A stretch of 64,000 bases of DNA from an uncultured Methanosarcinales archaeon (GCA_964597775.1 CAZQZJ010000001.1:6033-70032); one strand, 5' to 3'; shown: positions 9,956-25,300, counted from the stretch's first letter. The notes: generated by a model from the letters alone, not told the origin. Translations and numbers: made by a program.

Positions 9956-12900
9956 AGATGTGAGATAAGAGTATTTAATATCTGGGCTGCGCATTCTATA
10001 GTCGGATCTTTATCTCTATTAAGTGTTGTGATAATCTTTCCTGCGTTTTCAAGAATATCTTTTCGAAGTGATTGGTGGATAACACGGCTGCTCCATAGTC
10101 CAGACATGTAGAGTGATCGATAGTATACTGCTGCAATCAAGCTTTTTGTATATACTGGGAATGTTATTTTTTTAGCAAGTCGTGATGAATCATAGTAACA
10201 CCTGCCTATGGTTAGAATATCTTGTGAAGAAAGCTTTGAGTCAAAAAGGATAAGGCTTGCAATATCACAAGTCACTGGAAGTGTTTCATGTGCACTTCCC
10301 TTGTCAAGAGAGTATATCTTATTATTTTGAAGGATAAAATTATCTGGGTGAGCATCTTGATTTGGAGCTTGAGGTACAGTTTCAAGATATGGTTTGAGTT
10401 CATTCATCAAGGTAAGAGCCTGTTTCTTTATGTTGTGTGGAACATTAATGTCACTTATTCTTTTCTCCAATGATAAATTAATAGGTCTTGGTGTAGATGG
10501 TATCTTGATTTTGTGGAGTTGGGCTATAAAACGTGCAGCAGTAAGGTATTCATCTTGTTTAATTGTTCTTGATTTGATTCTTTCATACAAAGTTTCTCCT
10601 GGTATATAGGTTGTTACTAAAATTTGTTTTTCATTATGCTGCAAGACTCCGATAGGTTCTACAACATGATATTTTTCATCATAATCATCCTCATAATATG
10701 CCAGTGTGTTCTTGTATTCCTGCTTAGCCAGAACATCAGAATCATGTGTTTTAAATGCAAATGCGCGATTGATATACTCGCGTCCTGTATATACAAAAAC
10801 AGGATGTCCATGTTCCCCAAGCGAATCTCTTTGGAGTTTGGTATCAGTCATAATAAGTGATGCTGCATTCAGCAGATATTCAAGGCTTTTTTGTGGATTG
10901 GCATCTTTGAGTATTCTTCCTTGAAGTAGGTATACCTCTGTTTTAAGAGGGATGGTATCTATACATCGAGATGCTAGGTCAAGTGCTTCTTGGTTTTTTC
11001 CTAGTTGTAAAGCAAGAACCTCTGTTGATAAAAGTGCGCCGATGTCAGATGGATGTTCATTAATATATGCTTGAGTAGCTTGATACTGCTTTTGCCAAAT
11101 TCTCTGCGAATAAAAAGAAATAGCTAAGGAATTAAATTTGGTTGAGATACTAGCCTGTTCATAAAGAGTAAATGCATTCCCAAATTGGCCTGAATAAAAA
11201 GATAGAAGCGCTTGTCTAAAATTTCTCACAATTGGAAATTCCATAACCATATCATCTTCTGCTATAATTTTTGAGAGGTTTGGCAACGCCATGACCTGTT
11301 GATGTGATAAAAATAATGTAGACATTGAATAGAGTTTTGGCTTACGAAATACTCCCGCTATATTAACTAAATAATAAGTCAGGTATCCTATACATGGTGT
11401 GAAGAGAAGAGGTGCTATCCTTAGATCAGAGAAATTTAACAAAGACTGTATTGTGTAATCAATTTTATATGGTAAGTTTGAATAAAAAAAATAGGAAGAT
11501 GCTACAATAGAAGTAATAAATGGATATTCAGCCAATATATCTAAAGGTGTTGAACATATTCTAGTTAAAGTATTACAACGAAGAGATTCTCTCTGATCAT
11601 GTGGAAATCTCTGAAAACCTATCCATCCCAAAGTACAGAGGTACACCCCAAATAGAATTGAGATAAGATCTAGGTTGTTGAATGGATAATCAAGATTAGT
11701 ATAATTAATAATGCTATGTTGTCGCGTGTGTATATTTATAGATGCTATACCTTTGTATTTATCATCTTGCATACAGATTGCAGCTATCTGATTAGGAGAT
11801 ATCCATGATTGAAAGTATTCTTTATGGTTTGGCTGAGAAATTCGACGTATATGTTTATTTTCTAGGATTACAGATACATTTGCGTCTTCTGTATCCACCT
11901 CAATGATTCCTTCCTGAAAACAGATTGTTTTTGAGTCTGGTGAAAAAGAGATAATAGGAAAATTGACTGATTTGGCCATTTCAAGTTCGCGCAAACGAGT
12001 ACTTCTTTTATGCGGTTCATATATAATGATGTGCTCAAGTTTTTTTGAGTTAAGATCAAACAGCTCGATCTGATTTAGTCTGGTATAACGAGCATATCTA
12101 TTTCCATCAGGAGAACACGTAGATGGCGTGAGTGGTTCTGGAAGGTCTCTTATTTTTACAGGAGTATCTTTTTCAATTTTGTATAAAGCACCGTTAAAGA
12201 ACTCTGTCGAATTTCTTTGGTCCCATGACTCAAAAAAAATTCCTTTAGGTGTTGAAGCTATCATTCCAAGACTTCCTCTCACCTTGCAAAGATTCTTAGC
12301 ATATTCAAATGTTCTTAGGGTAATTGTTGATATATTACCTTCAATATAGCTACTAATCATCTCATGCTGATTTTTCCATATTGAATTAACTGGGTTTGGA
12401 AATGTTTGTGTTGCGAAGTTGTTAGTATTAAGAAATGTACCATGAGCAGAATCAGGATAACCATATATGAACAGTATAGACTGATCTGGAGAAAAGGATG
12501 TGTTGAAAAAGATGCTAGATCCACCAATAGTGATTCTTTTGTTATTATTAAGATCATAAAGAATATTCCTCTTTTTATGGGAATCATAGCTTAGTATATA
12601 ACTTCCTTTGCTTGAAACTTTAAGAACTTCTTCAAACTTTGCACAAGAGAATAATGGTGTGATATTTAATGGTGTAAATTTAGAAAGTGTATTTTCATAT
12701 TTTTCGTTTGATATGGTATCGAACAATGATTTTGACTTAACTTTAGTAATATGATGTGCAAAAAAGGTATCATAATTCTCAGTATATTGGCTTGTTTTAA
12801 ATGTTTGAATAAAAAGGTTTGCATAATTTCTCATGTTTGTGTATTTATCAAAAATTGAAGGAATGCCATACGAAAAACTTGCTATTATTCCTGTTGCAAT

Positions 12901-12957
12901 AAGTGCATACTTGATAGTTACTGCCTTTTTCTTAATCCTCTTCCATATTCTTCCCAT
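9952..12957 (-). CDS. large multi-domain membrane protein: N-terminal anchor, beta-propeller-like region, internal TM segments, TPR-like region, C-terminal APH/ChoK-like phosphotransferase domain
   Basis: 1001 aa. The C-terminus carries the HPDNFILQNNKIYSLDKGSAHETLPVTCDIASL kinase catalytic-loop motif (HxDxxxxN...D). There are PD40/WD-like repeats and hydrophobic stretches mid-protein. Confidence 0.5.
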   Translation of the reverse strand: MGRIWKRIKKKAVTIKYALIATGIIASFSYGIPSIFDKYTNMRNYANLFIQTFKTSQYTENYDTFFAHHITKVKSKSLFDTISNEKYENTLSKFTPLNITPLFSCAKFEEVLKVSSKGSYILSYDSHKKRNILYDLNNNKRITIGGSSIFFNTSFSPDQSILFIYGYPDSAHGTFLNTNNFATQTFPNPVNSIWKNQHEMISSYIEGNISTITLRTFEYAKNLCKVRGSLGMIASTPKGIFFESWDQRNSTEFFNGALYKIEKDTPVKIRDLPEPLTPSTCSPDGNRYARYTRLNQIELFDLNSKKLEHIIIYEPHKRSTRLRELEMAKSVNFPIISFSPDSKTICFQEGIIEVDTEDANVSVILENKHIRRISQPNHKEYFQSWISPNQIAAICMQDDKYKGIASINIHTRQHSIINYTNLDYPFNNLDLISILFGVYLCTLGWIGFQRFPHDQRESLRCNTLTRICSTPLDILAEYPFITSIVASSYFFYSNLPYKIDYTIQSLLNFSDLRIAPLLFTPCIGYLTYYLVNIAGVFRKPKLYSMSTLFLSHQQVMALPNLSKIIAEDDMVMEFPIVRNFRQALLSFYSGQFGNAFTLYEQASISTKFNSLAISFYSQRIWQKQYQATQAYINEHPSDIGALLSTEVLALQLGKNQEALDLASRCIDTIPLKTEVYLLQGRILKDANPQKSLEYLLNAASLIMTDTKLQRDSLGEHGHPVFVYTGREYINRAFAFKTHDSDVLAKQEYKNTLAYYEDDYDEKYHVVEPIGVLQHNEKQILVTTYIPGETLYERIKSRTIKQDEYLTAARFIAQLHKIKIPSTPRPINLSLEKRISDINVPHNIKKQALTLMNELKPYLETVPQAPNQDAHPDNFILQNNKIYSLDKGSAHETLPVTCDIASLILFDSKLSSQDILTIGRCYYDSSRLAKKITFPVYTKSLIAAVYYRSLYMSGLWSSRVIHQSLRKDILENAGKIITTLNRDKDPTIECAAQILNTLISHL

Positions 12958-12997: not shown

Positions 12998-15900
12998 TTA
13001 TGCTGTTATCACCAAACTCGGGCTAATGCTTCCCTTATTATTTAATATACCCTGGATCTTGATTCGTCCGTATCCTCCTCCTCCTGCTCTTGCATTCCAT
13101 CCTATTCCCCCAATGCCTCCTTGTGTTGCAATTGATGATGTTGCGTCAAGGCTTACATTTCCAATAAGATAGATTGAGCCTCCTGATCCTCCTCCTCCTC
13201 CAAATGCTCTTTTTTCAGATACTAGGCTTGAGTCATTTCCTTTGTCCCCATTTGCGTTTATCTGTGCTGAGCGTAGTTCAATAGTGTCTGCTATTAGTTT
13301 GATTCCTCCTCCTCCTGATCCTCCTTCTCCTCCAAAGGTTTGGATAGGTCCACTACAAGGGTTTCTACGTGTTGCCAATGTGCAGTGTTGCATGCTTGAT
13401 CCCCTGCCTCCTCCTGAGCCAAGTTCAAGTGTAGGTAAGTCTGGGTTTCCATAGGTTGTTCCTCCAGGTGCTGCTTGGGTTGATTCACCTTGGGTTGCGT
13501 GTCCTGCTCCTCCTCCGCCGCTGCAGAAATTATCATCATGTGTTGTGCCTGCACAGCCTTCGCAACAAAAGCTAGTTGGTGGATCGCTTCCAAGACCTGG
13601 TCCTGTGCCTGCAGTATGTCCTATGCCATTTGCTTGGATTTGAGTATGGTCAATAAGAATGTGTTTTGCAATAATAGTTAGTGTTCCACCTGTACTATTT
13701 GAAAATTGTTGTACTTGGATAAGTGTATTATTTCTAAGAATCACTTTATTGTATGGTCCTAATGTGCCGTTGAGGATAACATTTTGGTTATCAATGATAA
13801 GGTCTAGAAGGCATTGTTGTTGTTGAGTGGGTTTTGTGGATGTTGTTCCACAGTTATTATTGTCTGTGCAGATTCGTGTTTGTATGTTATTAAGGCATGT
13901 TCCAAAACTTGTGCATGACCAAGATTCTGTGCAGGTGCATGTCTCAATCTCTTCTGGTTTGTTTTTTGTTGTTCCACAATCATTAGTATCTGTACAGGTT
14001 CGTGTGCGTTTTCTGTTAGTTGGGCATGTTGTTGGTTGGAATGGTGTGCAACTCCATGATTCTGTGCATCGTGGACTTCCTGAGCAGCTAAATCTTGTTG
14101 CTGCATCTAGTCTATAGGTAGTAAAGGATTTTACATTGAATATAACAGTATCTTTAAGATTTGAGACTTGGCTGCACATATAGTTTGGGCATTCGACAAA
14201 CATGCCATTGTCATCAGCGTCTCGTCCTGGCATAGTGCCTTGTGCTTGTGAAGAATTCATACGCAGTATTGCGCTTGTATTAAGTCCTGGTGCATAGGTA
14301 GAATTAACAAAGATATGGTTCATTGTAAGGTTGATATAGGTAAGTAGTGGTACCTTGAGACTAAAGTTTGTTTTTGCTGTGTAATTAATAGATGATCGTG
14401 CCCATGATTCAATAAGTACAGGTGGTGGTGCTAAGGTGTTAGTGATTGTGGTGTTGAGTGTGTCTGTTAAATATAAAGATGTTCCGTGCATGTTTTCAAA
14501 TGTAATATCTGAGATAATATTATTTTTTCCAGTACTTAAATTGATTCCTAGCATAGATGATGTGATGTTGATATGATCAATTGAAAGGTTGGTTATGTTT
14601 GCAATCTGTAAAGCAATGCTAGTATTGGCTATACGCGTATCCTTCACTACCACATTTTGGCTATGAGAAATAACAATTCCTTCATTAGGATTAATGATAG
14701 TGTTATTAGCAAGGATAATTGTATTAGCATTACCTGTGATAAGAGTTCTAGAATTATTAAATATGTTGCCAAGAATAAATAGTTTTGAAAGATTTGATCC
14801 CCTAAGATCAAGAGCATATGCTCCTGTTTGAGTTAAGAGATTTGTATTACTAAGAAATGTGTTTGCTATGATGGTTGTGTTTTCTCTAAATCCGCTATTA
14901 CCAAAAGAAATCGCATATCTATCGCATCCAATGAAGATATTGTCTTGAATTAGGGTGTTGTTGATGTTTCTATTGCCTGGGATAAAATCCTCTATGCAAT
15001 CGCTTCCAGTGCCTGGTAAACTCGAGAATGAATTATTCTGGATAGTCAAACCAATAATATTTCCTGAGCCAAATGTAATTCCACGGTCTGTTGAATTACC
15101 CAAAATATTTCTCCGAATCATGGTGTTATTAAGCTCACCAGATAAAATCACAAAATTAGGCGAGCGAAGGATAGTATTATTCTCAAAAAGCGTGCTATTG
15201 GCTGCGCTAAGAGAAAGTGCTGAGCGAAAGTAGCCTCCAATGCCAACAACGCTAAAAAGATTGTCTGTGATTTGAGCCCCTATCATGGCGCCTAAAAGGT
15301 CGATACCTGTTGTGTCTATATTCAAGAAAGTGTTGTGTATCAATCTTGGTGCAAGAGTTTGTGCTGCATTAATAACAATTCCTGTTGTACAATTTGTAAA
15401 TCTGTTGTTGTTAATTATTAATGGCCCATTAATACTTAGGCTCAGGCATCCTCCTGCAATATTGCTTATGTTATTATCAGTAAATTGGAATAAGCCAGTA
15501 GTACTTCCCTGTCTTATGCCTGTAGAAACTTTGGTTCCAATAAAGGTATTATTCACGATAATATCATTGCCTTTAACTGAGAATATTCCATTTATTAGTG
15601 TGTTGTTAATAATAGTCCATTGACTGCCTAGTTCACAGAATATACTGCAGTTAATAGTATTATTGATGAGAAAACCACCAGGAGAGGTTATATTAAGACT
15701 CTTACTAATCACGTTATGAATTAATGATATAGTATCAAATCTTGAACCTTCTGAAATTGAGTCTATTCTGCTTAGTTGAATTATGTTATTATATGATGGA
15801 AAATTGTCATTTTTTTCTAGTGTAACAGAATCTGCTACAACATTTGAAATAATACTGTTGTTGACGTTTTTTCCAATAGAAATGCTTATGCTACTATTTT

Positions 15901-18900
15901 TGAGTTCGCAATTGCGAACAGTCACGTCTTTAAGATTGTCAGAAATATTTAGAAGTGTTCCTAAGCCATTTCCGCGAATGCTAAATCCATTGCAATCAAA
16001 AAATATATTGTCAGCTTTAAGAATAAAACACGAGCCATTCACAGACATATTTTGATTAAGGGTTATATTAGTAAAAATTGAACCGCAGCCAGTTTCCTGT
16101 GCAGAGTAGGTTGTGAAGTGTGTAACATCAAATTTGAATAAGCCTGCTGTGTTTGAGGTGTTTTGGCATATGGATTGTGGGCATGATGTGAAGATGTTGT
16201 CATCCTCAAAGTCTACAATTGGTTGTGGTGTTGTGTAGCTTAGGTTTAAGATGATAGTTCCGCTAGCATTAAGTTTTGGTTCTAGTGTGGTGTTTGCAAA
16301 TGCTTTGTTGTTTGAGATGTTGAATCGTGTTGTGTCTGCAAATTCTATGCCTGAATAATTAACTCGGTTAATCTGAATGCGTCCAAATTGGTTGGCTTTG
16401 GCTATGTTTGGGAACGGTTTGATGCTGGCATTGGTGATGTTGATGAAGTTCTGGAACTCTAGTGTGATGTTTCCTGTTGGTGCTGCTGCGTTTGAGCTGT
16501 TGGTGGCAGATAAGGTTCCATTGATAATAAGGCTGATGCTGGTGATGTTGATGTTTCCGCCTGATCCTCCAATTCCTGCTCCGTTTGCTGAGATTGATCC
16601 TGTGATATTGACTGTGCTTGCGTTGATAAAGATGCGGCTTGCCTTGCCTATTTTAGCGTTTGCAGTAATACTTCCACGAATATCCAGCGTGTTTGCAGTA
16701 ATACTAATGTTGCTTGGGATGCCAAAGCCGGCACCATTTGGGCTTTGTGGTTCGCCAATTAGTGTTCCATTGATAAGGATTTGGTTTGCTGTGATGCTAA
16801 ATAATGGGATTGTTATGGCATTTGCGAAATTTCTTGTGCCTCCAAAAAATCCGCCCATAATCGAATTTGTTGGTATAAGTAGGGATTCAGTGAGATTGAA
16901 TGTAATAGGTGGTGGAATAAATGTATGAGAATATTCATAAAATCCTAACCTGACACCATTCTTAAGCATTAGGCTTCTGCTATTTACAAAGAGTCCGACA
17001 AGAGTGCTGTTACCTTCAATAAAGATGCGTTGTGCACTAATAATTGCTGTTCCTGTGCCATTGTGGATAATACCTCCCATATGGTCTGTTCTATCTGCTG
17101 CTTGAAGATCTGGGGTAAGGTTAAGAATATCGACTGATAAATTGATTCCTGCGTTAATGGTTCTAATACGTGCCTTGTTTTTGATTGTGAGGTTTCCTAG
17201 ATTTATTGTTCCGTTGAGTATGCATGATCTGCCTTCAAGTACTGCTTGTTGTCCATTTGAGAACTCGCAAGATCGATGTGGCATAACAAGGTATGCAGGG
17301 TCTGTGGGGCTGGTTATATTAAGATTAGTAAAATTAAGAAAGATTGATCCATCAGGAGCAAATACTGCTATGCCAACTCCAATTGCTCCGACTGCTCTAA
17401 GTGATGAACTGATGTTGAGGAATTTTCCTGCAGTGAGGTTGATGATTCCTCCAGATCCTGATTCTGCTGCACCATATCCCCCATTTGTGTTTATGCTTCC
17501 ATTGATAGTGATGTTCTCAGTTGCAATGATATGGATTGCCCCTCCAGGTCGTCCTTCATAAAGTCCACCGCTGGATGTTGCCTGGCTATTAATTTGACCG
17601 CGAAGATCTAGATCATTAGCAATGATTGTGATGTTTCCTCCACTGCCAGGATAACTGCCTTCATGTCCATTAGACCTAATGGTTCCATTTATTTTAACAA
17701 AGTTTGCAATAATCTTGAAATCAAGTCCTCTTGTAAAATATGAGTTTATGTTATCTACTCCTCCTGGAAAGTTTCCAGCGATGCTTCCATCACTTTGAAC
17801 AAGAAGGTTTCCAGTCATGTTAATAATTGTTTGAGAAATAGTTTCAGTTCTTTTTGCCTGTCTTCTCCAGGTTGTTCTAAGTGTTATGTTTGGTGGGATG
17901 ATTAAGGTGTTGTTAAGGTTAAAGTTGATGCCTTGCAATGAGTTTTCGATCAAGTTATAAAACGGCTTATTAAGGTTGATTCCTCCTGCAGTTACTGTCA
18001 TGTTTCCGCTTCCATTGTGGCTAATCCCTCCTCCTGTAAGGTTGAGTGTATCAATGATGGTGAGGTTAAAGCTCTGGGCATCAGTAAAAAGTAAACCATC
18101 TCCTAGGATAGTTAGGTTATTGACTGTCATGTTTCCTGTTTGCATGCATCTGGTGTTGTTGATGATTGCTTGACTGCTTGGTGTTAAAAGGCAGTTCATT
18201 CCTGGAACAAGGTAATATGCTGGAGAAGTATAGGCTGATTGGGAAAGTGTGCTGTAATTAAGAAAGATTCTTCCATGCTCAACATATCGTGATGTTGCAT
18301 TAATACTTCCATTAATAATAAGTGTTGTTGCATTGATGTGGATAATCCCTCCTCCACTTCCAGTTCTATAAATTACAGGAACCATTTCCATAGCATAGAT
18401 TCTTCCTGTGAGGTTAAGGTATGATGTATTGATTCTGATGATTCCTCCTCCATAGGTATTACCAGAGTCAGATGCCTGTACTCCTGATGATGTGATTGTT
18501 CCTAAGATGTGGGTGCTATTGGACTGAAGCAAGATGGTTCCTGGTGCACCTATAACGTAAATATTGATATTATCATAGGATCTGCCATTTGCATTAATTG
18601 ATCCACTTACAAGAATGGTTGTTGCTGTGATATTGATGATGTTTCCTGCTGGTTTAGTTGTAGAGATTGATCTAGAGGTGATAATTCCAGTCTCGCTGAT
18701 ATTTAGCAATTCTCCAACAATGATGTCTATCCTTCCATGTTTTTCATCATCCCGAATTGTTCCTGCAACAATCATATTCTGACTCACATTAATTGTAATA
18801 TTTGCAGGAGTTGCATTAATCACCCCTGTTGATGTAATGGTAAGATTAACAAAATTCAAAGATCCATTAAGGAATTTGGTGGTAGTGATAATGCAGTTTG

Positions 18901-19207
18901 TTTTTTCATCGCCACTATCGCAAGAAAATGCGTTTTGTTGTTCATTGTTAAATATATTAAATCCAAATAGCTTAAAAGAAAACATTCCTGAGGGAGAGGT
19001 ATTGGTATTAGTAAATAAGGTTGATTGCAAGCGTGCTTCTCCAATTTGATCTTGGGTTTCTTGATATGGGTAGAATAATGAGATTAGAATAAGTAATAAG
19101 ACAATGCCTATTTCATATTGAGTTTGATGTATGTCTCTGCTTCTTACTCCTGATAATATTTTATTCTTTTTCATAGAGGATGGTCTATAAACTATTCCTT
19201 TTTCCAC
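12998..19207 (-). CDS. giant (about 2069 aa) surface protein with right-handed parallel beta-helix (pectate-lyase/NosD-like) repeats, Cys-rich CxESWxC modules and a Gly-rich C-terminal repeat
   Basis: The ORF-track start is a GTG. The likely start is the internal Met (MKKNKILSG...IGIVLLLILISLF) at about 19174. The protein contains many N-x-T/S-rich beta-helix rungs (NNTIINPNEGIVISHSQNVVVKDTRIANTSIALQIANITNLSIDHINITSS...). Repeated 40-aa modules (CTESWSCTPFQPTTCPTNRKRTRTCTDTNDCGTTKNKP) are shared with gene 19218..20282. The C-terminus is GGGGSGGSIYLIGN-like Gly-rich. Confidence 0.7.
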   Translation of the reverse strand: MEKGIVYRPSSMKKNKILSGVRSRDIHQTQYEIGIVLLLILISLFYPYQETQDQIGEARLQSTLFTNTNTSPSGMFSFKLFGFNIFNNEQQNAFSCDSGDEKTNCIITTTKFLNGSLNFVNLTITSTGVINATPANITINVSQNMIVAGTIRDDEKHGRIDIIVGELLNISETGIITSRSISTTKPAGNIINITATTILVSGSINANGRSYDNINIYVIGAPGTILLQSNSTHILGTITSSGVQASDSGNTYGGGIIRINTSYLNLTGRIYAMEMVPVIYRTGSGGGIIHINATTLIINGSINATSRYVEHGRIFLNYSTLSQSAYTSPAYYLVPGMNCLLTPSSQAIINNTRCMQTGNMTVNNLTILGDGLLFTDAQSFNLTIIDTLNLTGGGISHNGSGNMTVTAGGINLNKPFYNLIENSLQGINFNLNNTLIIPPNITLRTTWRRQAKRTETISQTIINMTGNLLVQSDGSIAGNFPGGVDNINSYFTRGLDFKIIANFVKINGTIRSNGHEGSYPGSGGNITIIANDLDLRGQINSQATSSGGLYEGRPGGAIHIIATENITINGSINTNGGYGAAESGSGGIINLTAGKFLNISSSLRAVGAIGVGIAVFAPDGSIFLNFTNLNITSPTDPAYLVMPHRSCEFSNGQQAVLEGRSCILNGTINLGNLTIKNKARIRTINAGINLSVDILNLTPDLQAADRTDHMGGIIHNGTGTAIISAQRIFIEGNSTLVGLFVNSRSLMLKNGVRLGFYEYSHTFIPPPITFNLTESLLIPTNSIMGGFFGGTRNFANAITIPLFSITANQILINGTLIGEPQSPNGAGFGIPSNISITANTLDIRGSITANAKIGKASRIFINASTVNITGSISANGAGIGGSGGNINITSISLIINGTLSATNSSNAAAPTGNITLEFQNFINITNASIKPFPNIAKANQFGRIQINRVNYSGIEFADTTRFNISNNKAFANTTLEPKLNASGTIILNLSYTTPQPIVDFEDDNIFTSCPQSICQNTSNTAGLFKFDVTHFTTYSAQETGCGSIFTNITLNQNMSVNGSCFILKADNIFFDCNGFSIRGNGLGTLLNISDNLKDVTVRNCELKNSSISISIGKNVNNSIISNVVADSVTLEKNDNFPSYNNIIQLSRIDSISEGSRFDTISLIHNVISKSLNITSPGGFLINNTINCSIFCELGSQWTIINNTLINGIFSVKGNDIIVNNTFIGTKVSTGIRQGSTTGLFQFTDNNISNIAGGCLSLSINGPLIINNNRFTNCTTGIVINAAQTLAPRLIHNTFLNIDTTGIDLLGAMIGAQITDNLFSVVGIGGYFRSALSLSAANSTLFENNTILRSPNFVILSGELNNTMIRRNILGNSTDRGITFGSGNIIGLTIQNNSFSSLPGTGSDCIEDFIPGNRNINNTLIQDNIFIGCDRYAISFGNSGFRENTTIIANTFLSNTNLLTQTGAYALDLRGSNLSKLFILGNIFNNSRTLITGNANTIILANNTIINPNEGIVISHSQNVVVKDTRIANTSIALQIANITNLSIDHINITSSMLGINLSTGKNNIISDITFENMHGTSLYLTDTLNTTITNTLAPPPVLIESWARSSINYTAKTNFSLKVPLLTYINLTMNHIFVNSTYAPGLNTSAILRMNSSQAQGTMPGRDADDNGMFVECPNYMCSQVSNLKDTVIFNVKSFTTYRLDAATRFSCSGSPRCTESWSCTPFQPTTCPTNRKRTRTCTDTNDCGTTKNKPEEIETCTCTESWSCTSFGTCLNNIQTRICTDNNNCGTTSTKPTQQQQCLLDLIIDNQNVILNGTLGPYNKVILRNNTLIQVQQFSNSTGGTLTIIAKHILIDHTQIQANGIGHTAGTGPGLGSDPPTSFCCEGCAGTTHDDNFCSGGGGAGHATQGESTQAAPGGTTYGNPDLPTLELGSGGGRGSSMQHCTLATRRNPCSGPIQTFGGEGGSGGGGIKLIADTIELRSAQINANGDKGNDSSLVSEKRAFGGGGGSGGSIYLIGNVSLDATSSIATQGGIGGIGWNARAGGGGYGRIKIQGILNNKGSISPSLVITA

Positions 19208-19217
19208 TATTTAAAAG

Positions 19218-20282
19218 CTAAGATTCCATGCATGTGCATGTTTCAATCTCTGCTGATTTGCTTAGGTTAGTTCCACATCTATTGGTATCAGTGCATGTAC
19301 GTGTTCGTTCTCTGCTAATAGGGCAAATAAGTGGTTCAAATCCTGTGCAAGTCCAGGATTCAGTGCATGGGATAGTGCAATTTTGTTGTGTTGCTGGTTT
19401 AGTTAGATTGGTTCCACAAGGTGTGTTGTCTGTGCAGTTTTTTGTTTGAAACCCTAAGTTACATGCACCAAATTCTGCGCATGTCCATGACTCATTGCAT
19501 ACGCATTGTTGGAATAACCCTGGTCGATTGTTTGTTGTGTTGCAAATGTTCATATCTGTGCAGTTTCTTGTTTGGCTGTTGATAGATGTGCAAATTCCAA
19601 ATGATTCACATTTCCATAGTTCAGCACATGGTGGAGTGCAAATCTCTTCAATAGCAGGTCTGCTGGCATTTGTTCTGCAATCATTAAGATCAATGCAATG
19701 TTTGTTCTGTATGCCATTAATGCATGTTCCAAGATTTGTGCAACTCCAGGATGGTGTACATGCTGTTTTTGCAAATGCTGTTATGAACATGTCACAGATT
19801 TGGATTTCAACATTGATACTTCCCCCACCAGGAAGGGGAATAGGTTGGCTAGCTGAATCGCGTTCTCCAGGACATGATTCTGGTGCGTCAATACTTCCAA
19901 AACTTCCTTGCGTAATACTTTCTACTTGTGGATTTCCTGTAATTTGGAGATAATATCCTTTTTTGATAGGAACAAGCGTATCCTTAAAGATGCGCTGAAA
20001 ATTACTGCGGGTAAATGCGCACGAGTCAAGGCCTCCACAATTTAAAAGTTGATCACTTGCACAATCTTGGAGAAGTGCGCCAAATGTTTTTTTTTGGCAA
20101 GCTGTGGTTTTAAGTAGGGTGCTTAGAAATGTTGTGGCAAGGCGTTTTTGCTCAAATCCTGCTTTGATGTCTTCTACTGGTTTGTTAATAATAGATAGTG
20201 CAAAGAGTACGCCAATGCTAACCAGGATGACGATAATAGTAAGTCCCATAATCTCCATTTGAGCTTGTTTTCTGTTATGCAT
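19218..20282 (-). CDS. pilin-like protein with class III signal peptide and 4-5 tandem Cys-rich CxESWxC...CTDxNxCGT modules
   Basis: The N-terminus MHNRKQAQMEIMGLTIIVILVSIGVLFALSI is followed by the repeats CTPSWSCTNLGTC..., CAELWKCESFGIC..., CNESWTCAEFGAC..., CTESWTCTGFEPLIC... The C-terminal module is nearly identical to a module inside the neighbouring giant protein. Confidence 0.6.
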   Translation of the reverse strand: MHNRKQAQMEIMGLTIIVILVSIGVLFALSIINKPVEDIKAGFEQKRLATTFLSTLLKTTACQKKTFGALLQDCASDQLLNCGGLDSCAFTRSNFQRIFKDTLVPIKKGYYLQITGNPQVESITQGSFGSIDAPESCPGERDSASQPIPLPGGGSINVEIQICDMFITAFAKTACTPSWSCTNLGTCINGIQNKHCIDLNDCRTNASRPAIEEICTPPCAELWKCESFGICTSINSQTRNCTDMNICNTTNNRPGLFQQCVCNESWTCAEFGACNLGFQTKNCTDNTPCGTNLTKPATQQNCTIPCTESWTCTGFEPLICPISRERTRTCTDTNRCGTNLSKSAEIETCTCMES

Positions 20283-20775
20283 AAATATTCACCTTAAGAA
20301 TAGCGAATTTGTATTTGTCAGTAAGTGGGTCGCGGATGTTGATAGGGATAAATGAGGGCATAATCGAATTTGTTTGAAGTGGTTTTTTTTCATATAAGAT
20401 GGTTATCTTTTTTTCTGGGAAGATTTCTTCTATGCTGACATTAGAATATCCAAAGGTTGAGAAATAATCATCTTTGATAGTCGCATTTTTTCGAAGAAGG
20501 TATGAAAAATTGGCAACTTTATATTCATCAAAGCATGTCTCTACTTGAACTGTTATTTTAGTGCAATCAAGTTCTGGGATAGTTGCAATTTTGTCAGAGA
20601 GTGTAATAGCTCTCTTTTCAAGAACGCGTTCATATTCTTTGGCTGCTTGTGTTTTGGCAACAAGAAAGTAAAATGATAGGCCAAATGCAATAAGGAAAAA
20701 GAAGATAAGAAGTACTGCTATTGTTTCAAACATTTGAATTTGTGCGTGTTTCATCGTTAATAGATTTCTGGGCAT
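20275..20775 (-). CDS. pilin-like protein (class III signal peptide)
   Basis: The N-terminus MPRNLLTMKHAQIQMFETIAVLLIFFFLIAFGLSFYF is a KH(A)Q motif followed by a hydrophobic helix. Confidence 0.5.
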   Translation of the reverse strand: MPRNLLTMKHAQIQMFETIAVLLIFFFLIAFGLSFYFLVAKTQAAKEYERVLEKRAITLSDKIATIPELDCTKITVQVETCFDEYKVANFSYLLRKNATIKDDYFSTFGYSNVSIEEIFPEKKITILYEKKPLQTNSIMPSFIPINIRDPLTDKYKFAILKVNIYA

Positions 20776-21875
20776 GAGCCACCAAAATATTCTTTAGATA
20801 GATTATTAATTTTGTTATAGAAATCAAGAATTTGTGTGCTATCTCTTCTTCGTGCTGCATGTGATAAACTGTTAAGGTTAATTACTACTTGATCATAACC
20901 TAGTTGACAGGTTGGGGTGTTAAGAGCTGCTGCTCTGATTGCATAAAGAGATGCAATGTTTGAAAGTTTATTATAGGCAGTATTCATATTACAGCTATAC
21001 TGGTCAGGGTGTTCGCTAAAAAAAGCTGCGATGAGATCACCTTCATTAATATAAGATGCTGTGATAGGTCCTAAATATTGTCCTCTTTTATTTTTATAAT
21101 AAAATGTTAGCTTTTTTGTTTCAGTATTAACCTCAAGGCAGGATATATCTTTTTCTTCGTTACGAAATTGGTTACATTGTCCACTATCAAAATAGATAAA
21201 CCGCGTTCTACCGCTTGATTGTCTTATGTTTTTTGCTAAGATTGCTGCAGTGCCAGTAGAAATATTAATGTTGATATTCCCTGGAAGAATAGAAAGAATT
21301 CTATCTATTTCTGGCGTCATGTGTGGTACTACAATAACATATTTAATGCGATTATTGGTGATTGCTAAAAAGTTGGTAACACGAAACGGTACTTTCCAAT
21401 CAAAGGCGTAAAGGATCATATTTGGTCCGCGAATAATTGGTGGTGAGAAGATTATAGTCTCTCCAAATGGTTTGTTTACTGCTCCAATGGATAATGTACA
21501 ACTGCAATCTTGTGTGCATGCAAACAGAACGTCGATTTCTGGAAATTCGATAAGTTGAGATGTTCCTTTTGAGGTTGATGCTTTGCTTGATATGGCAGTA
21601 AGATCTGAGATAATGCTTTCTGCTATAGATAGTTCATTTGCTGCCTTTTGTTTTTGGATAAATGCAAAAAAAGTGACTAGAATAATAGCTCCTGCAATAA
21701 GTGTAAAAAGCCAATTAAGTGGTACTTCTAGTTGGCCGCGAGATATTGGTTTGTATTTTTTTCTCTGGGTTCTGCAGGTTTGATGTTGATTAATTCCAAT
21801 TATTTTCATAGTGCTTGTTGTATAATGTTTTAATATGAATAAAATCATTAAGTATGGATTTATAAGAGATTCCAT
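20757..21875 (-). CDS. hypothetical membrane protein within the pilus/adhesin cluster
   Basis: 372 aa with a TM helix (LNWLFTLIAGAIILVTFFAFI). It overlaps both neighbours by 16-19 nt, indicating an operon. Confidence 0.45.
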   Translation of the reverse strand: MESLINPYLMILFILKHYTTSTMKIIGINQHQTCRTQRKKYKPISRGQLEVPLNWLFTLIAGAIILVTFFAFIQKQKAANELSIAESIISDLTAISSKASTSKGTSQLIEFPEIDVLFACTQDCSCTLSIGAVNKPFGETIIFSPPIIRGPNMILYAFDWKVPFRVTNFLAITNNRIKYVIVVPHMTPEIDRILSILPGNININISTGTAAILAKNIRQSSGRTRFIYFDSGQCNQFRNEEKDISCLEVNTETKKLTFYYKNKRGQYLGPITASYINEGDLIAAFFSEHPDQYSCNMNTAYNKLSNIASLYAIRAAALNTPTCQLGYDQVVINLNSLSHAARRRDSTQILDFYNKINNLSKEYFGGSCPEIY

Positions 21876-22375
21876 CTGCTAATCTTAGTACGATCTCCTA
21901 ATCCTTCAAGACGGAGTGATATAGTGGATGACTCAATTTTCTCAAAGCAAAGGAATTCAGGTGGGTCAATATCAATTGTTCCTATATTAATTGGTGTTTC
22001 AGAAAGTGGTTTTAAAAAGACATTTTGGTCTGCTCCGCTTGCTACTGCATCTGCCATGCGTGCGCTAATATTATAAAGTGGTTCAAGAGCTTTTTGGTTT
22101 CCTGTTGTTTGTGAGAGAAGGTCTTGTGTGTCGATAAAGCATATAGATGTGTATCCTGGACAGACTGACAAGTCTAGTTTTCGAACGCTTCCAAAGCTTG
22201 CACGAACTCGTTCAACTTGATTTTTAAGTGTGTTTTCCATATCAATAAGGCATACCTCTGATTTGACTGCTTGAAGTTTGCTAATTGCATTGTAGCCGTA
22301 AATAAGGATCATTGAGAATATGATTGCTCCAAGTACAAAGAGTAGTGCTTGTCCAATGACCTGGCCTTGTTTCAT
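21860..22375 (-). CDS. pilin-like protein (class III signal peptide)
   Basis: MKQGQVIGQALLFVLGAIIFSMILIYGY: KQGQ followed by a hydrophobic helix. Confidence 0.55.
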   Translation of the reverse strand: MKQGQVIGQALLFVLGAIIFSMILIYGYNAISKLQAVKSEVCLIDMENTLKNQVERVRASFGSVRKLDLSVCPGYTSICFIDTQDLLSQTTGNQKALEPLYNISARMADAVASGADQNVFLKPLSETPINIGTIDIDPPEFLCFEKIESSTISLRLEGLGDRTKISRWNLL

Positions 22376-25300
22376 TATGTTTTCTTTGTTCTTTTAAGTG
22401 TAGTTTGGGGCCTGAGCCATAATTCAGATTGTTTTTGGATCTTGTCTTTATTTTTTTCCCAATATGCTGCTGTAATGCGTAATTTTTTAAAGAGTTTTTC
22501 GCGCTCTTTTGCAGTTAATTTGCCTTGGCGAAGTAATGAGAGTTTTTCCTGGATATCTTTACGTTCCTCAGTTGTGAATCTTGAGAATGCTATTTCTTGT
22601 AGTGGTGTTAGTTGTGGTTGGTCTTTTTCTTGTGATTTTCTGAGTTGTGAAAAGATTGGGGATTCATGTTCTTCCATAGTTTTGGTAAGGTTGTCAAGTG
22701 TTTGGTATTCAATCTCTGTTTCTTTTTTCTTTGGTTGCTTTTCTAATGGTAAGGATTTGATATCTCGTTGAGCTGTTTGAATTGGTGTTTCTCCAGTAAT
22801 TTTTAGGACTGGTTTTGGTTGTTGTTGTATAATTCGTGGCATTGGTAGCGTACTGGTTTGTTTTCGTTGAGTATACCAATAATATGATCCAATTCCTCCA
22901 AGAAGTAGGAGGGCGATGATTGTTCCCCATAATGGCCAGTTAATAAGAGGAACTGAAAGCACGTTTGTTGGATCTGATCCAGCGCGAAGTTCTTTGCCGT
23001 CATTATATCCATCTCCGTCAGTGTCAGAATTTTGTGGGTCGATAAATCTGTTTTTTTCATGAAAGTATTTGTATTCTTCAAGATTGGTTAAGCCGTCTCC
23101 ATCTGGGTCAGATTTAGCATCATCTGAATTTTGTGGGTCAAGGCCATACTTCTTTTCAAAAAAGTCAGGAATGCCATCACCATCACTATCTTGTGGTGTT
23201 GAAGTGTCATCAACTGCATTGCTTCCTGCTTGGCTCTCTTCATAATCACTAAATCCGTCATTATCAGTATCTTTTTTATGAGGATCTATGTCCTGGCCTG
23301 TTTCCTTAAAATGGTTGTACTCTTCAAGGTTAGTCATTCCATCTTCATCAGGATCTGCAGTTGCGTCGTTTGCATCTTTTGGGTCAAGGCCATGTCGTTG
23401 TTCATACTCATCAGGTATGCCGTCAAGATCTGTGTCTTTTCCTCCAGCTCCTGGATAGTCATTTTCATTAGTAGGGTCTGTTCCAGCATTGATTTCATCT
23501 TTATCAGAAAATCCGTCTCCGTCAGTATCTTTTTTGTTAGGATTAATCTCTTTGCCAGTTTCTTTAAGGTATTTATATTCGTCAAGATTGGTTAGGCCAT
23601 CTCCATCAGGGTCTTCTTTAGCATCTGCATTATTATTTGGATCAAGTCCGTGTCTTTTTTCCCAGTCATCAGGCATGCCATCCTGATCACTGTCTTGATT
23701 GGTTGGTTTTGATTTGGGATCCAAAGGATCTGTGCCAACACCTATCTCAAGGCCGTCTGGTGCCTCATCTCCATCAGTGTCTCGTTTTTGGGGATCGATC
23801 TCTTTGCCAGTTTTTTTAAAGTATTGGTATTCTTCATCATTGGTAAGTCCATCGCCATCTGGGTCTTCTCCTGCATCAGGAACAGATGGGTTAAGATTGT
23901 GGCGGCGTTCATAATCATCAGGAATGCCGTCACCATCACTGTCCTTATTTTTGTCAACACATGTCTTGATGTCATTACTTCCACTGCTCTGACAGCTTAG
24001 TCCAGTTGCGCAGTCAGTGGAAGTGCTGCATTGCTTGCCTTCAATGCATTTGCTTGGGCATGCTCCTCCACAGTCTATATCACTTTCTCCACTGTCCAGT
24101 GCTTTGTTTTGGCATGGTGCTGGTTCTTGGCATATGCCTCTTTGTCCGCAGAATCCTGTGGAACAATCAGTATTGGAAATGCATGTCTTATTTGTGTTGC
24201 ATGTTGGACAGGTTCTGCCGCAATCAATATCAGTTTCATTGCCATTCTTAAGATTGTCATTACAGCTAGGAATGCCACAAATATTATGATCACATGATAC
24301 ACTAGTGCAATCACTATTTGATTTACATTTCTTTCCATCTTCGCAAGGAGTACAGCTGCCTCCGCAGTCAAGTGCTGTTTCTGTTCCATCTGTTTTGTTA
24401 TTAATGCATGTTGCAGGTCGCACGCTTGTATCAACAAGAATGCCATCAGATGCTAGAAAAGTTGAGTTTCGTTCTACAAAGTCTACTGCGCGTACATCAA
24501 AAAAGTAGCGTGTCTGGTTAGTTAGTTGAAGTCCGGTGATAATAACCTCTTTTTCTGGGTTGTTGTCTGCTGTGAGATTCTTTATTATCTTATTATTCTG
24601 ATCCCTAATTTGATATTCGTATCTGCGAACCCCAGAATCAGGGTCTGAACCATTGTAGATAACGCGTAGGCGATCCCGATCTGCAGTGAGTTGTGGGTTA
24701 GAGGATAGTGCATCATCTCGAACAAAGATCATGCGTGGTGGTTGTGTGTCAATGCCAAAAGGTGTTTGAATTGCTGCATTTTCTGGTTGTCCTCCAATGA
24801 CTGTTGCGCCGCCAGTTCTGCAAGTTGTATTAACAATATGTTTGCCTGGGCTAAATATCTGAGTAAGGAGGTGATTTTGAGTGAGTTGTCTTTCAACAAA
24901 AAGAAGTGTTTCATCACCAGTATAAGAACAGAGGCTATCTTTATTTGAGCCAATGGATATTATTGCACTCTCGCCTGCAAAGATTGTGTTTGGTGGTGTG
25001 TTGTCTTGCAGTTTAAATGTGGTGCTGGAATCTACTCTAAATGTTGTTTGTGCAGCAATTGGTCCAAGTCCTGATGCGCTTTTGCACGAAATAAAAAAAG
25101 TATAGGCGCTAAGTTGTGGAACCTCGATCTCAGCATTGTGTGTGGTGCTTGCAATAAGGTTAAATCCTGGGAAATTATGTTCCATGTTATCAAATTGGTT
25201 TGTGTTGTTTGAGAATTTGCAAAAAGTGTCTATGTTAGTTGTTGCTTTGAGTGTTGTCTTAAATGGACGTTGGATAATCGGGTTTGGATCTGCAAAAAAT

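What the first reader, a model, noticed from the sequence alone, without database searches (positions are those of the whole stretch)
12998..20282. Shared 40-aa Cys-rich module (CxESWxC...CTDxNxCGT...KP) and nucleotide-level repeats between a pilin-like gene and the neighbouring 2069-aa beta-helix protein
The 354-aa pilin-like protein (19218-20282) consists of tandem copies of a module containing 6 Cys (for example CTESWTCTGFEPLICPISRERTRTCTDTNRCGTNLSKSAEIETC). The same module occurs twice inside the giant protein (CTESWSCTPFQPTTCPTNRKRTRTCTDTNDCGTTKNKPEEIETC...). DNA similarity is strong enough that spurious antisense ORFs at 13827-14117 and 19228-19449 share peptide strings (VQVHVSIS, LVSVQVRVR). 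This suggests module shuffling or recombination between adjacent surface genes. I do not recognise the module as a named domain.
Basis: seen in the sequence. Interest (0 to 1): 0.55.

Follow-up and report, generated by a model that had tools for sequence, protein, structure and literature searches.

The report
Unnamed thrombospondin-like cysteine repeat, DPANN surface proteins
Two neighbouring surface-protein genes of an ultrasmall groundwater archaeon share copies of a small disulfide-stapled repeat that no domain database names, although it is common in DPANN archaea and CPR bacteria and looks like a shortened relative of the thrombospondin type-1 adhesion repeat of animals and malaria parasites.

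Summary
The 354-aa protein (19218-20282, -) carries four tandem 43-45-aa six-Cys modules plus a 4-codon stub of a fifth. The adjacent 2058/2069-aa beta-helix protein carries two. There are no other copies in the window.

The module matches nothing in Pfam, NCBIfam or PDB sequences. A profile of the six copies nevertheless finds 4659 protein clusters, with 1-15 copies each and mostly with signal peptides. They are almost all from DPANN archaea and Patescibacteria. It is therefore a widespread, unnamed extracellular repeat.

AlphaFold2 models it confidently (pLDDT 94.7). Paired loss of Cys7 and Cys22 indicates disulfides. Longer natural variants grow by +3/+2/+2 residues in three segments, and they link the family to thrombospondin type-1 repeats (hhalign 87%; Foldseek top hit properdin; Pfam TSP_1 below threshold).

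"Recombination between neighbours" is only weakly supported. One module pair (P4/B1) has 74% nucleotide identity against 65±2.7% expected. The 150-nt block has sharp edges, and the gene's TAG stop aligns with a Trp codon. Three assemblies are identical across the modules, so the exchange is old.

I infer that both proteins have pilin-like N-termini and display the modules as a rigid stalk or adhesive element.

The parts
19218..20282 (-). Gene for the 354-aa protein. It has a pilin-like N-terminus, a Cys-containing middle region that could not be modelled, and four tandem modules plus a stub at the C-terminus.
   Evidence: ORF. It is identical to NCBI 'MAG: hypothetical protein AABX52_03555 [Nanoarchaeota archaeon]'. 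AF2 model: helix 2-32 at pLDDT 76-88, residues 59-142 below 50, modules at 82-96.
20187..20282 (-). N-terminal leader plus hydrophobic helix (MHNRK-QAQMEIMGLTIIVILVSIGVLFAL). It looks like a class-III (prepilin-type) signal.
   Evidence: Read from the sequence and predicted as a long helix. No pilin HMM hit, so this part is an inference.
19629..19760 (-). Module P1 (aa 175-218)
   Evidence: 72.3 bits
19500..19628 (-). Module P2 (aa 219-261)
   Evidence: 70.9 bits
19368..19499 (-). Module P3 (aa 262-305)
   Evidence: 68.1 bits
19233..19367 (-). Module P4 (aa 306-350). It is the 45-aa 'F-x-P-x-x-C-P ... R-x-R-T-R-T-C' subtype and the closest relative of B1.
   Evidence: It is 69% aa and 74% nt identical to B1.
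19218..19232 (-). Stub of a fifth module, TGC ATG GAA TCT TAG (C-M-E-S-stop). It aligns with TGC ACA GAA TCT TGG (C-T-E-S-W), the start of B2 in the giant gene. Similarity ends immediately after it.
12998..19207 (-). Gene for the giant surface protein. The longest ORF is 2069 aa from a GTG. The public gene call is 2058 aa starting at the ATG at 19174. Layout: beta-helix repeats, then two modules, then a Gly-rich C-terminal region.
   Evidence: Pfam Beta_helix E = 2.1e-8, above its threshold. Domain layout read.
19064..19126 (-). N-terminal motif of the giant protein, QTQYEIGIVLLLILISLFYPY. It resembles QAQMEIMGLTIIVIL of the 354-aa protein and looks like a second class-III-type signal.
   Evidence: Read from the sequence. 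Inference only.
13934..14068 (-). Module B1 (aa 1714-1758 of the 2069-aa ORF), same subtype as P4
   Evidence: (61.3 bits)
13811..13933 (-). Module B2 (aa 1759-1799), canonical length
   Evidence: 68.7 bits. AF2 model of this copy has pLDDT 94.7.
20275..22375 (-). Three further small genes (166, 363/372 and 171 aa). Each has a short basic leader, then (G/A)Q, then a hydrophobic helix. They overlap or abut each other and the 354-aa gene, so the arrangement is operon-like.
   Evidence: Gene spacing is -1, 11, -19 and -8 nt. No family hits.
13827..14117 (+). Antisense ORF across B1/B2. It is spurious and is the reverse reading of the repeat.
19228..19449 (+). Antisense ORF across P3/P4. It is spurious and is the reverse reading of the repeat.

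Best explanation
The repeated unit is one copy of a widespread extracellular protein domain that no database names. Its canonical form is 42 aa: C-x-[E/P]-x-W-x-C-x-x-W-x-x-C-x-N-G-x-Q-T-R-x-C-x-D-x-N-x-C-G-T-x3-K-P-x3-Q-x-C. It is characteristic of DPANN archaea and Patescibacteria (CPR).

Structure. It folds as a thin three-segment mini-domain held by three disulfides. Cys7-Cys22 is supported by the data. Cys1-Cys28 and Cys13-Cys41 are inferred. The domain is built on the same grammar as the thrombospondin type-1 repeat (TSR): an aromatic/Trp-bearing first strand, an Arg-bearing second strand and a third strand, stacked in layers that can be added or removed.

This window. The window comes from a Nanoarchaeota MAG from Hainich groundwater. 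The module sits four times (plus a truncated fifth) at the C-terminus of a small protein with a prepilin-like N-terminus. It sits twice in the neighbouring giant beta-helix protein, between the helix body and a Gly-rich C-terminal region. That giant protein has a very similar N-terminus. Both genes lie in a co-oriented cluster with three more pilin-like genes and other giant secreted proteins.

Likely working (inferred). After export, and possibly prepilin-type processing, the two proteins are displayed on or at the tip of a type-IV-pilus-like fibre or on the cell surface. Linkers between modules are only 1-3 residues, so the tandem modules would form a stiff, disulfide-stapled stalk or adhesive surface. 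This would help the episymbiont contact a host cell or substrate, much as TSR arrays do in properdin or in apicomplexan TRAP/MIC2.

Origin of the sharing. The two genes share the module through ordinary domain duplication and shuffling. One block (P4 plus stub, matching B1 plus the start of B2) has a common DNA ancestor, but the event is old. It is not ongoing recombination.
For: Shown:
- Six copies, and only six, occur in the window.
- The family is large. A profile of the six copies finds 4659 proteins at E ≤ 1e-3 and 932 at E ≤ 1e-10 among 1.84e9 representatives, with up to 15 matched stretches per protein.
- Column statistics on 650 instances define the motif.
- Of 146 hits that start with Met, 84% have an N-terminal hydrophobic segment and 22% have a C-terminal TM-like segment. 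Linkers between modules are most often 3 residues and often 0-2.
- Taxonomy. Nearly all are DPANN (Woese-, Pace-, Aenigmat-, Nano-, Micr-, Iain-, Undin- and Nanohal-archaeota) or Patescibacteria. The same pattern found 0 hits in IMG/VR.
- No Pfam, NCBIfam or PDB-sequence match, even for canonical multi-copy proteins.
- Disulfides. 59 modules lack Cys7 and Cys22 together, against 1 lacking Cys7 alone. Three modules lack Cys1 and Cys28 together.
- Fold. AF2 gives pLDDT 94.7 for one module. The four modules score 82-96 within the full protein.

TSR link:
- Four of the top five Foldseek PDB hits for the single module are TSR-containing chains, but all have E > 1.
- For the four-module model the top hit is properdin 1w0r_A at E = 1.3e-3, followed by C6, Sema5A TSR3-4 and Unc5A.
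- Natural length classes of the inter-Cys segments are (5,8,12), (8,10,14) and (11,13,16). All three segments grow together.
- The long variants match the module profile at hhalign probability 99.4%.
- The long variants match a profile of seven TSP-1/properdin TSRs at 87%, score 29.3. In 150 column-shuffled controls the score was 10.2 ± 2.3 with a maximum of 19.6.
- Pfam TSP_1 is the only domain family that aligns nearly full-length to the long variants (E = 0.029, profile positions 2-44 of 49). The score is below Pfam's threshold.

Old shared ancestry of P4 and B1:
- The homology block is 150 nt with sharp edges, and the TAG stop aligns with TGG.
- Nucleotide identity is 74.1% against 65.0 ± 2.7% expected.

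Genomic setting and reproducibility:
- The genes are arranged like an operon.
- The two N-termini are similar, QAQMEI against QTQYEI.
- The sequence is reproducible across three assemblies.
Against: - The window's own copies do not reach TSP_1 in any test. They give no Pfam hit. hhalign of the canonical profile against TSRs gives only 6.6%, within about 2 sd of the shuffled controls.
- Five of the six window copies have Phe, and one has Leu, where 94% of family members have the second Trp.
- The inferred disulfide pairing (2-4, 1-5, 3-6) differs from the 1-5, 2-6, 3-4 pairing I recall for TSP-1 TSRs.
- All Foldseek E-values are at or above 1e-3.
- I had no coordinates, so I could not inspect layers or disulfides in the models.
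- The long variants were found with a pattern that required R-T-R-T-C, so their frequency is biased.
- No pilin HMM matches any of the five N-termini. I found no pilus ATPase or prepilin peptidase among the window ORFs I scanned.
- The globular part of the 354-aa protein could not be modelled.
- There are no expression or binding data. The adhesion or stalk role is an inference from architecture and analogy.
Confidence: 0.6

Rival explanations
1. Ongoing or recent recombination (gene conversion) between the two adjacent genes shuffles modules to vary the surface, as in contingency or antigenic-variation loci.
For: The genes are adjacent. The 150-nt P4/B1 block has sharp edges exactly at module borders, and the stub ends at TAG where B2 has TGG. 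The DNA identity excess is z = 3.35. In 10 of 120 unrelated loci, two or more module-bearing ORFs lie within 8 kb.
Against: The block is still 26% diverged at the DNA level, and third-position identity is only 62%. The other 14 module pairs show no significant excess. The 69% protein identity of P4/B1 is about the same as their identity to same-subtype modules from unrelated organisms. Three assemblies from replicate samples are identical across all modules.
Confidence: 0.08
2. The resemblance to thrombospondin type-1 repeats is convergent. The module is an independent prokaryotic invention of a small disulfide-rich beta mini-domain and has no common ancestry with TSRs.
For: The canonical profile against TSRs gives hhalign 6.6%. 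The window copies give no Pfam TSP_1 hit. The Cys spacing and inferred pairing differ from TSRs. Foldseek E-values are ≥ 1e-3. Short Cys/Trp/Arg-rich motifs can recur by chance or through the same structural constraint.
Against: The long variants give 87% hhalign probability, with a score far above the shuffled controls. TSP_1 is the only Pfam family that aligns nearly full-length. TSR proteins dominate the top structural hits for both models. The three segments grow together by +3/+2/+2, which matches the WxxW/RxR layer rule of TSRs.
Confidence: 0.3
3. The Cys-rich unit is a metal-binding or redox module (a Zn or Fe-S ligand set) rather than a disulfide-stapled structural repeat.
For: Six invariant Cys lie within about 42 aa, and the organism lives in groundwater. 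This context comes from the sample name and is not further tested.
Against: Cys are lost in pairs: 59 modules lack Cys7 and Cys22 together, against 1 lacking Cys7 alone. There are no CxxC or CxxH ligand motifs. Of the carrier proteins, 84% have export signals. AF2 models the domain confidently without a metal.
Confidence: 0.04
4. The repeat is an assembly artefact or mis-join of a repetitive region.
For: None found.
Against: Two other assemblies from replicate filters match the window at 99.99% over 21 kb, including both genes. The copies are too diverged (49-74% nt identity) to cause repeat collapse.
Confidence: 0.01

Closest known systems
Thrombospondin type-1 repeat (TSR; Pfam TSP_1 PF00090), as in thrombospondin-1, properdin, complement C6-C9, Sema5A, UNC5 and apicomplexan TRAP/MIC2/CSP
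   Same: Both are small (about 40-60 aa), extracellular and six-Cys, and both occur in tandem arrays in adhesive or surface proteins. Both have an aromatic/Trp-bearing first strand and a '...Q-x-R-x(R-x)-C' second strand. In the module family, length variants add layers in all three strands together. TSR proteins are the best structural hits. Long variants reach hhalign 87% against TSRs. TSP_1 gives a sub-threshold, nearly full-length Pfam alignment.
   Different: The module is shorter (42 aa). An extra Cys lies between the two Trp, and the 'C-S-V-T-C-G' turn of TSRs is absent. The tail D-x-N-x-C-G-T...K-P is conserved and unlike TSRs. The inferred disulfide pairing differs from the one I recall for TSRs. 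The module fails Pfam's threshold. The window's copies have Phe or Leu in place of the second Trp. The module occurs in DPANN and CPR, whereas TSP1 is treated as an animal-type adhesion domain that apicomplexans acquired by transfer (PMC3417536).
Sets of minor pilins plus a large tip adhesin in bacterial type IV pili (FimU/PilVWX + PilY1), and archaeal class-III-signal surface proteins. Both are recalled from memory and are used as an analogy only.
   Same: The window has a run of four small co-oriented, overlapping genes, each with a short basic leader, a Q and a hydrophobic helix. They are followed by a giant protein with the same kind of N-terminus.
   Different: No pilin, PilY1 or class-III-signal HMM matches. 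I found no assembly ATPase, platform protein or prepilin peptidase in the window ORFs I scanned.
Other prokaryotic Cys-rich extracellular repeats in the libraries searched. Examples recalled from memory are the myxococcal cysteine-rich repeat, EGF-like and TNFR-like families, and the Bacterial TSP3 repeat of the neighbouring gene.
   Same: They have the same general role, as disulfide-rich tandem repeats in secreted proteins. The neighbouring 1945-aa protein carries TSP3_bac repeats.
   Different: None of these families matches the module at E ≤ 10 in Pfam or E ≤ 0.1 in NCBIfam.

Membership tests
Thrombospondin type-1 repeat (Pfam TSP_1, PF00090) | Sequence scores at or above the Pfam gathering threshold (21.6 bits) | tested here: not met
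   The window modules give no hit at E ≤ 10. Canonical multi-copy proteins give no hit. Long variants from other loci reach 15.0 bits (E = 0.029) and 10.1 bits.
Thrombospondin type-1 repeat (Pfam TSP_1, PF00090) | WxxW(xxW) on the first strand and RxR on the second strand (Trp-Arg ladder) | tested here: inconclusive
   The canonical module has W5-x-C-x-x-W10 and a single R20. Long variants have W-x-x-W-x-x-C and R-x-R-x(R). The window copies have W5 only, with F or L at position 10. P4 and B1 have R-x-R-x-R.
Thrombospondin type-1 repeat (Pfam TSP_1, PF00090) | Six Cys paired 1-5, 2-6, 3-4 (group-1 TSR pairing, recalled from memory of the TSP-1 TSR structure 1LSL) | tested here: not met
   The co-loss pattern indicates Cys7-Cys22, which is a 2-4 pairing (59 joint losses against 1 single loss). 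It hints at a 1-5 pairing (3 joint losses), which leaves 3-6. Only the 1-5 pair would correspond. I could not inspect model coordinates.
Thrombospondin type-1 repeat (Pfam TSP_1, PF00090) | Elongated three-stranded layered fold | tested here: inconclusive
Thrombospondin type-1 repeat (Pfam TSP_1, PF00090) | Profile-profile similarity to bona fide TSRs | tested here: inconclusive
   The canonical profile gives 6.6%. The long-variant profile gives 87%, score 29.3, against a shuffled maximum of 19.6. The long variants match the canonical profile at 99.4%. The TSR profile had only 7 sequences.
Archaeal type IV pilin-like protein (class III signal peptide) | Short charged leader, a cleavage-site-like (K/R)(G/A)-Q and/or Q-x-x-x-E motif, then a hydrophobic helix of about 20 residues at the extreme N-terminus | tested here: met
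   Read directly from the sequence: MHNRK-QAQMEIMGLTIIVILVSIGVLFAL, and similar N-termini in the three upstream small genes and the giant protein. The helix is predicted at 2-32. The motif definition is recalled from memory.
Archaeal type IV pilin-like protein (class III signal peptide) | Match to a curated pilin or class-III-signal model | tested here: not met
   No Pfam or NCBIfam hit for the full proteins or for the isolated N-termini at E ≤ 10.
Archaeal type IV pilin-like protein (class III signal peptide) | Processing by a prepilin peptidase and assembly by a pilus ATPase and platform | not testable with these tools
   No such genes were seen among the window ORFs scanned. The rest of the genome was not available.
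   No Pfam family matches at E ≤ 10 for the module arrays.
Right-handed parallel beta-helix (giant protein body) | Pfam Beta_helix above threshold | tested here: met
   PF13229 scores E = 2.1e-8, 34.4 bits against a 25.9-bit threshold, in four stretches.

The most novel reading that the evidence does not exclude
The module family is a true prokaryotic branch of the thrombospondin type-1 repeat superfamily. It is abundant in, and largely specific to, the ultrasmall episymbiotic DPANN archaea and CPR bacteria. In these organisms it is mounted on pilus-associated proteins and giant adhesins to grip host cells. This would be a direct parallel to the TSR adhesins of apicomplexan parasites, and perhaps a clue to where the 'animal-type' TSR came from.
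Probability: 0.3. Interest if true: 0.72.

Novelty: new variant of a known kind. Interest (0 to 1): 0.45.

Why it matters
DPANN archaea and CPR bacteria are thought to live attached to other cells, yet the proteins that make the contact are mostly unannotated.

This repeat occurs in thousands of their secreted proteins and is absent from Pfam and NCBIfam. Giving it a profile would annotate a large block of 'hypothetical' surface proteins. It would also flag candidate attachment proteins, such as the pilin-like and beta-helix pair in this window.

If the link to thrombospondin type-1 repeats holds, it extends a domain regarded as animal/apicomplexan (PMC3417536) deep into prokaryotes. It would also suggest testable ligands, such as glycans or charged polymers on host envelopes.

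The local point about sharing between neighbours is ordinary domain shuffling.

Tried and rejected
Searches and tools that gave nothing or were unavailable:
- The search for homologous proteins with the 100-module alignment gave only 4 candidates and no hit, so that search was wasted.
- The full 354-aa protein has no homologue other than itself and one module in P0002.
- The giant protein has only two partial relatives.
- The neighbouring 1001-aa protein has no relative in the JGI metagenome contigs. Copy-number variation in related genomes therefore could not be examined.
- The IMG/VR pattern scan found 0 hits.
- PHROGs on the P0002 contig L003 was uninformative.
- Pfam on the isolated N-termini gave no pilin family.
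- Four of the five literature searches found no description of this repeat. The fifth yielded only PMC3417536, which gives the general view of TSP1 domains.

Results I set aside:
- hhalign of the 44-aa 'P..CP' subtype against TSRs gave an out-of-register alignment at 56%, which I disregard.

Readings I rejected:
- EGF or TNFR identity.
- Assembly artefact.
- Coding potential of the antisense ORFs.
- Read-through of the TAG stop. The frame after it runs only 9 more codons, with no module-like sequence.


Full report
**What is in the sequence**

The window is chromosomal DNA of a DPANN archaeon. The 354-aa product is identical to NCBI 'MAG: hypothetical protein AABX52_03555 [Nanoarchaeota archaeon]'. 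Two further assemblies from Hainich groundwater well H51 carry the same locus.

The 354-aa ORF (19218-20282, minus strand) ends with four head-to-tail modules of 43-45 aa, at aa 175-350. The adjacent 2069-aa ORF (12998-19207; the public gene call is 2058 aa) carries two modules, at aa 1714-1799. An HMM of the six copies scores each at 61-72 bits. Nothing else in the six-frame translation of the window exceeds 7 bits.

Every copy has six Cys, one invariant Trp, a D-x-N-x-C-(G/N/R)-T core and, in five of the six copies, a (K/R)-P (P4 has K-S).

The window matches the two other assemblies at 99.99% over 21 kb. The three SNPs lie outside the modules. The repeat is therefore real and fixed in this population.

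**DNA-level similarity**

The repeat finder reports a 149-nt pair, 13921-14069 against 19220-19368, at 75% identity. I aligned the modules codon by codon and compared the observed nucleotide identity with the expectation from the amino-acid alignment plus the window's codon usage.

Only P4-B1 stands out, at 74.1% against 65.0 ± 2.7% expected (z = 3.35). The other 14 pairs have z ≤ 2.3.

The P4/B1 block has sharp borders. Identity rises from about 0.2 to 0.8 exactly at the first Cys codon. It falls back right after a 5-codon stub, TGC ATG GAA TCT TAG in the small gene against TGC ACA GAA TCT TGG (the start of B2) in the giant gene. The small gene's stop codon therefore sits where the next module's invariant Trp codon would be, one transition away.

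This shows that P4 plus the stub and B1 plus the start of B2 descend from one piece of a tandem array. The 26% DNA divergence and the lack of variation between assemblies show that the event is old.

P4 and B1 also belong to a distinct 44/45-aa subtype (W-x-C-x-x-[WF]-x-P-x-x-C-P...) that is common elsewhere. I found 31 instances of it. Members from unrelated contigs are 64-67% identical to P4 and B1, against 69% between P4 and B1 themselves.

They are the mirror image of the repeat and nothing more.

**What the module is**

It matches nothing in Pfam, NCBIfam or the PDB sequences, even at E ≤ 10.

A profile of the six copies, searched against 1.84 billion cluster representatives, finds 4659 proteins at E ≤ 1e-3, 932 at E ≤ 1e-10 and 101 at E ≤ 1e-30. 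They carry 1 to 15 matched stretches each. Canonical multi-copy members also have no Pfam or NCBIfam match over the repeat. Where a source names them, the name is 'hypothetical protein'.

From 650 instances the consensus is C-x-[E/P]-x-W-x-C-x-x-W-x-x-C-x-N-G-x-Q-T-R-x-C-x-D-x-N-x-C-G-T-x3-K-P-x3-Q-x-C. The window's copies are a minority variant, with Phe (5 copies) or Leu (1 copy) at position 10. In the family that position is Trp in 94% of instances and Phe in 4.5%.

The carrier proteins are extracellular. Of 146 hits that start with Met, 84% begin with a hydrophobic segment and 22% end in a TM-like anchor, often right after the last module. P0153, a distant relative of the giant protein, is one example. 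The architectures around the repeat are very diverse and include CARDB, S-layer, PG_binding and beta-helix domains. Linkers between consecutive modules are short, most often 3 residues and often 0-2.

A degenerate DNA pattern for Q-T-R-x-C-x-D-x-N-x-C-G-T was scanned over one genome per GTDB species. I estimated about one chance match. They are overwhelmingly DPANN: Woese-, Pace-, Aenigmat-, Nano-, Micr-, Iain-, Undin- and Nanohal-archaeota. A minority are Patescibacteria. A few TPA bins are labelled Gammaproteobacteria or Methanosarcinales, and I did not check those labels.

In 10 of the 120 loci, two or more module-bearing ORFs lie within 8 kb. Neighbouring genes that share the module are therefore not unusual. 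The same pattern has no hit in 2.9 million IMG/VR contigs.

**Structure and the thrombospondin link**

With 100 diverse module sequences as the alignment, AlphaFold2 models B2 at pLDDT 94.7, with short strands at 5-7, 17-19/22-24 and 38-40. In the full 354-aa protein the four modules are modelled at pLDDT 82-96.

Cys are lost in pairs. Fifty-nine modules lack Cys7 and Cys22 together, against one lacking Cys7 alone. Three modules lack Cys1 and Cys28 together. This pattern argues for disulfides, with a 2-4 pairing, probably 1-5, and by elimination 3-6. It argues against metal ligation.

Foldseek against the PDB gives weak but one-sided results:
- For the single module, four of the five best hits are TSR-containing chains (sMAC chain 7nyc_C, C8 alpha twice, Toxoplasma MIC2), all at E > 1.
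- For the four-module model, the best hit is properdin (E = 1.3e-3, 278 aligned columns). Complement C6, Sema5A TSR3-4 and Unc5A follow.

A pattern scan of metagenome contigs then turned up longer natural variants of the module. Measured between Cys, the three segments come in the classes (5,8,12), (8,10,14) and (11,13,16). All three strands grow together, by +3/+2/+2 and then +3/+3/+2 residues. Each step adds a W-x-x unit to the first segment and an R-x unit to the second. This matches the Trp-every-third, Arg-every-second layer rule that I recall for TSRs.

These long variants match the module profile at hhalign probability 99.4%. They match a profile of seven TSRs at 87%, score 29.3. I verified those seven TSR sequences against PDB entries of thrombospondin-1 and properdin. 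In 150 controls with shuffled TSR columns, the score was 10.2 ± 2.3 with a maximum of 19.6. Pfam TSP_1 is the only domain family that aligns nearly end to end with them. It stays below threshold, at E = 0.029 and 15 bits against a 21.6-bit cutoff.

The canonical profile and the window's own copies do not reach TSRs directly (6.6%; no Pfam hit).

My reading is that the module works like a shortened TSR and is probably a distant relative. It is not a member of TSP_1 by any curated threshold, and its disulfide pattern differs.

**The locus and the likely mechanism**

The two genes lie in a co-oriented minus-strand run, in this order:
- a 971-aa secreted protein;
- a 431/500-aa membrane protein;
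- a 1945-aa protein with TSP3_bac repeats and a C-terminal anchor;
- three small genes of 171, 363 and 166 aa;
- the 354-aa gene;
- the giant gene;
- a 1001-aa membrane protein with a weak, sub-threshold match to the APH kinase-like family.

Spacings from the 1945-aa gene to the 354-aa gene are -1, 11, -19 and -8 nt. The next two gaps are 43 and 40 nt.

All four small proteins start with a short basic leader, a (G/A)-Q and a hydrophobic helix. The giant protein starts '...RDIH-QTQYEIGIVLLLILISLF', which is strikingly like 'MHNRK-QAQMEIMGLTIIVILVSI' of the 354-aa protein. These look like class-III (prepilin-type) signals. No pilin model matches them, and I saw no pilus machinery in the parts of the window I scanned. 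'Pilin-like' therefore remains an inference.

The steps that are shown:
- the domain family exists and is exported;
- disulfide pairing is indicated by paired Cys loss;
- tandem linkers are short;
- the genes are arranged like an operon.

The steps that are inferred:
- the small protein and the giant beta-helix protein are displayed on or at the tip of a pilus-like fibre or on the cell surface;
- their module arrays act as stiff, stable spacers and/or binding surfaces for contact with a host cell or substrate.

**Comparison and novelty**

The closest known kind is the TSR. The locus layout recalls the minor-pilin-plus-tip-adhesin sets of bacterial type IV pili, but only as an analogy.

Sharing a repeat between neighbouring surface genes is ordinary domain shuffling. 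The new points are these:
- a repeat present in thousands of DPANN/CPR surface proteins has no name in the libraries searched;
- it can be tied, through natural length variants, to the thrombospondin type-1 build, a domain otherwise regarded as animal-type (PMC3417536).

I rate it a new variant of a known kind, of moderate interest.

**Limits**

- The TSR profile was small.
- The long variants were collected with a biased pattern.
- No related genomes were found for a copy-number comparison.
- No expression or binding data exist.

Noticed in passing
window 19064-19126 (-) compared with 20187-20282 (-): The giant beta-helix protein and the 354-aa protein have near-parallel N-termini, H-QTQYEIGIVLLLIL against K-QAQMEIMGLTIIVIL. 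The 2058-aa protein may itself carry a prepilin-type signal, which would make it a giant 'pilin-like' adhesin.
   Followed up: partly
window 23947-24369 (-), aa 1282-1425 of the 1945-aa protein (22375-28212): This region holds three copies of a different Cys-rich unit (D-x-D-C-G-G/R-x-C-x2-3-C...C-x-S-x-x-D-C...). They lie just upstream of the TSP3_bac (thrombospondin type-3-like, calcium-binding) repeats. The protein has 72 Cys, and I did not identify the unit. The same cluster thus holds both type-3-like and type-1-like 'thrombospondin' repeats.
   Followed up: no
L125, L133, L139, L141, L144 and other loci (metagenome contigs; L139 and L144 are from the same Hainich H51 well): These loci carry long variants of the module (48 and 56 aa) with W-x-x-W-x-x-C and R-x-R-x-R-x-C. 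In L133, L141 and L144 (less clearly in L139) a conserved unannotated C-terminal domain follows ('...YPQYHYG[YF]D...NKN.WANG[IV]L[VL]HLGDP.PV').
   Followed up: partly
L003 (ENA BAEC19-1 scaffold_5980), P0002 at 7224-8189: The nearest outside relative of modules P4 and B1 sits in a 321-aa membrane-anchored protein. Its contig is packed with small co-oriented unannotated genes, including a Bac_DNA_binding protein and an HNH/homing endonuclease. It may be a mobile element or virus. P0002 also has a 'W-S-A-W-S-T-C' TSR-like stretch right after the module. PHROGs was uninformative.
   Followed up: partly
window 13001-13810 (-), last ~270 aa of the giant protein: The C-terminal region after the modules is Gly-rich (runs of GGGGSGG, GGIGGIG). 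It repeats the 'G-G-x-I-x-L/I-x-A' pattern seen in the N-terminal beta-helix units. It has no family hit.
   Followed up: no
window 14069-14300 (-) and aa ~1040-1110 of the giant protein; also P0152 and P0153: A recurring 'cap' unit ends each beta-helix block ('N-I-S-x-N-K-A-F-x-N-[ST]-T...D-x-[EA]-D-D-[GN]...C...F-x-V-[TK]-[HS]-F-T-[TG]-Y-[SR]'). It lies directly before the two modules, and it is shared with the only two distant relatives found.
   Followed up: no
window 9952-12957 (-): This 1001-aa multi-pass membrane protein has a weak C-terminal match to the APH/kinase-like family (E = 0.0023, below threshold). It lies immediately downstream of the giant gene. The JGI metagenome scan found no relative.
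   Followed up: partly
window 29669-32584 (-): This 971-aa secreted protein heads the cluster. It has a sub-threshold match to the Ephrin cysteine-rich domain (E = 9.5e-4, 19.6 bits against a 27-bit threshold). It is another unassigned Cys-rich surface protein.
   Followed up: no
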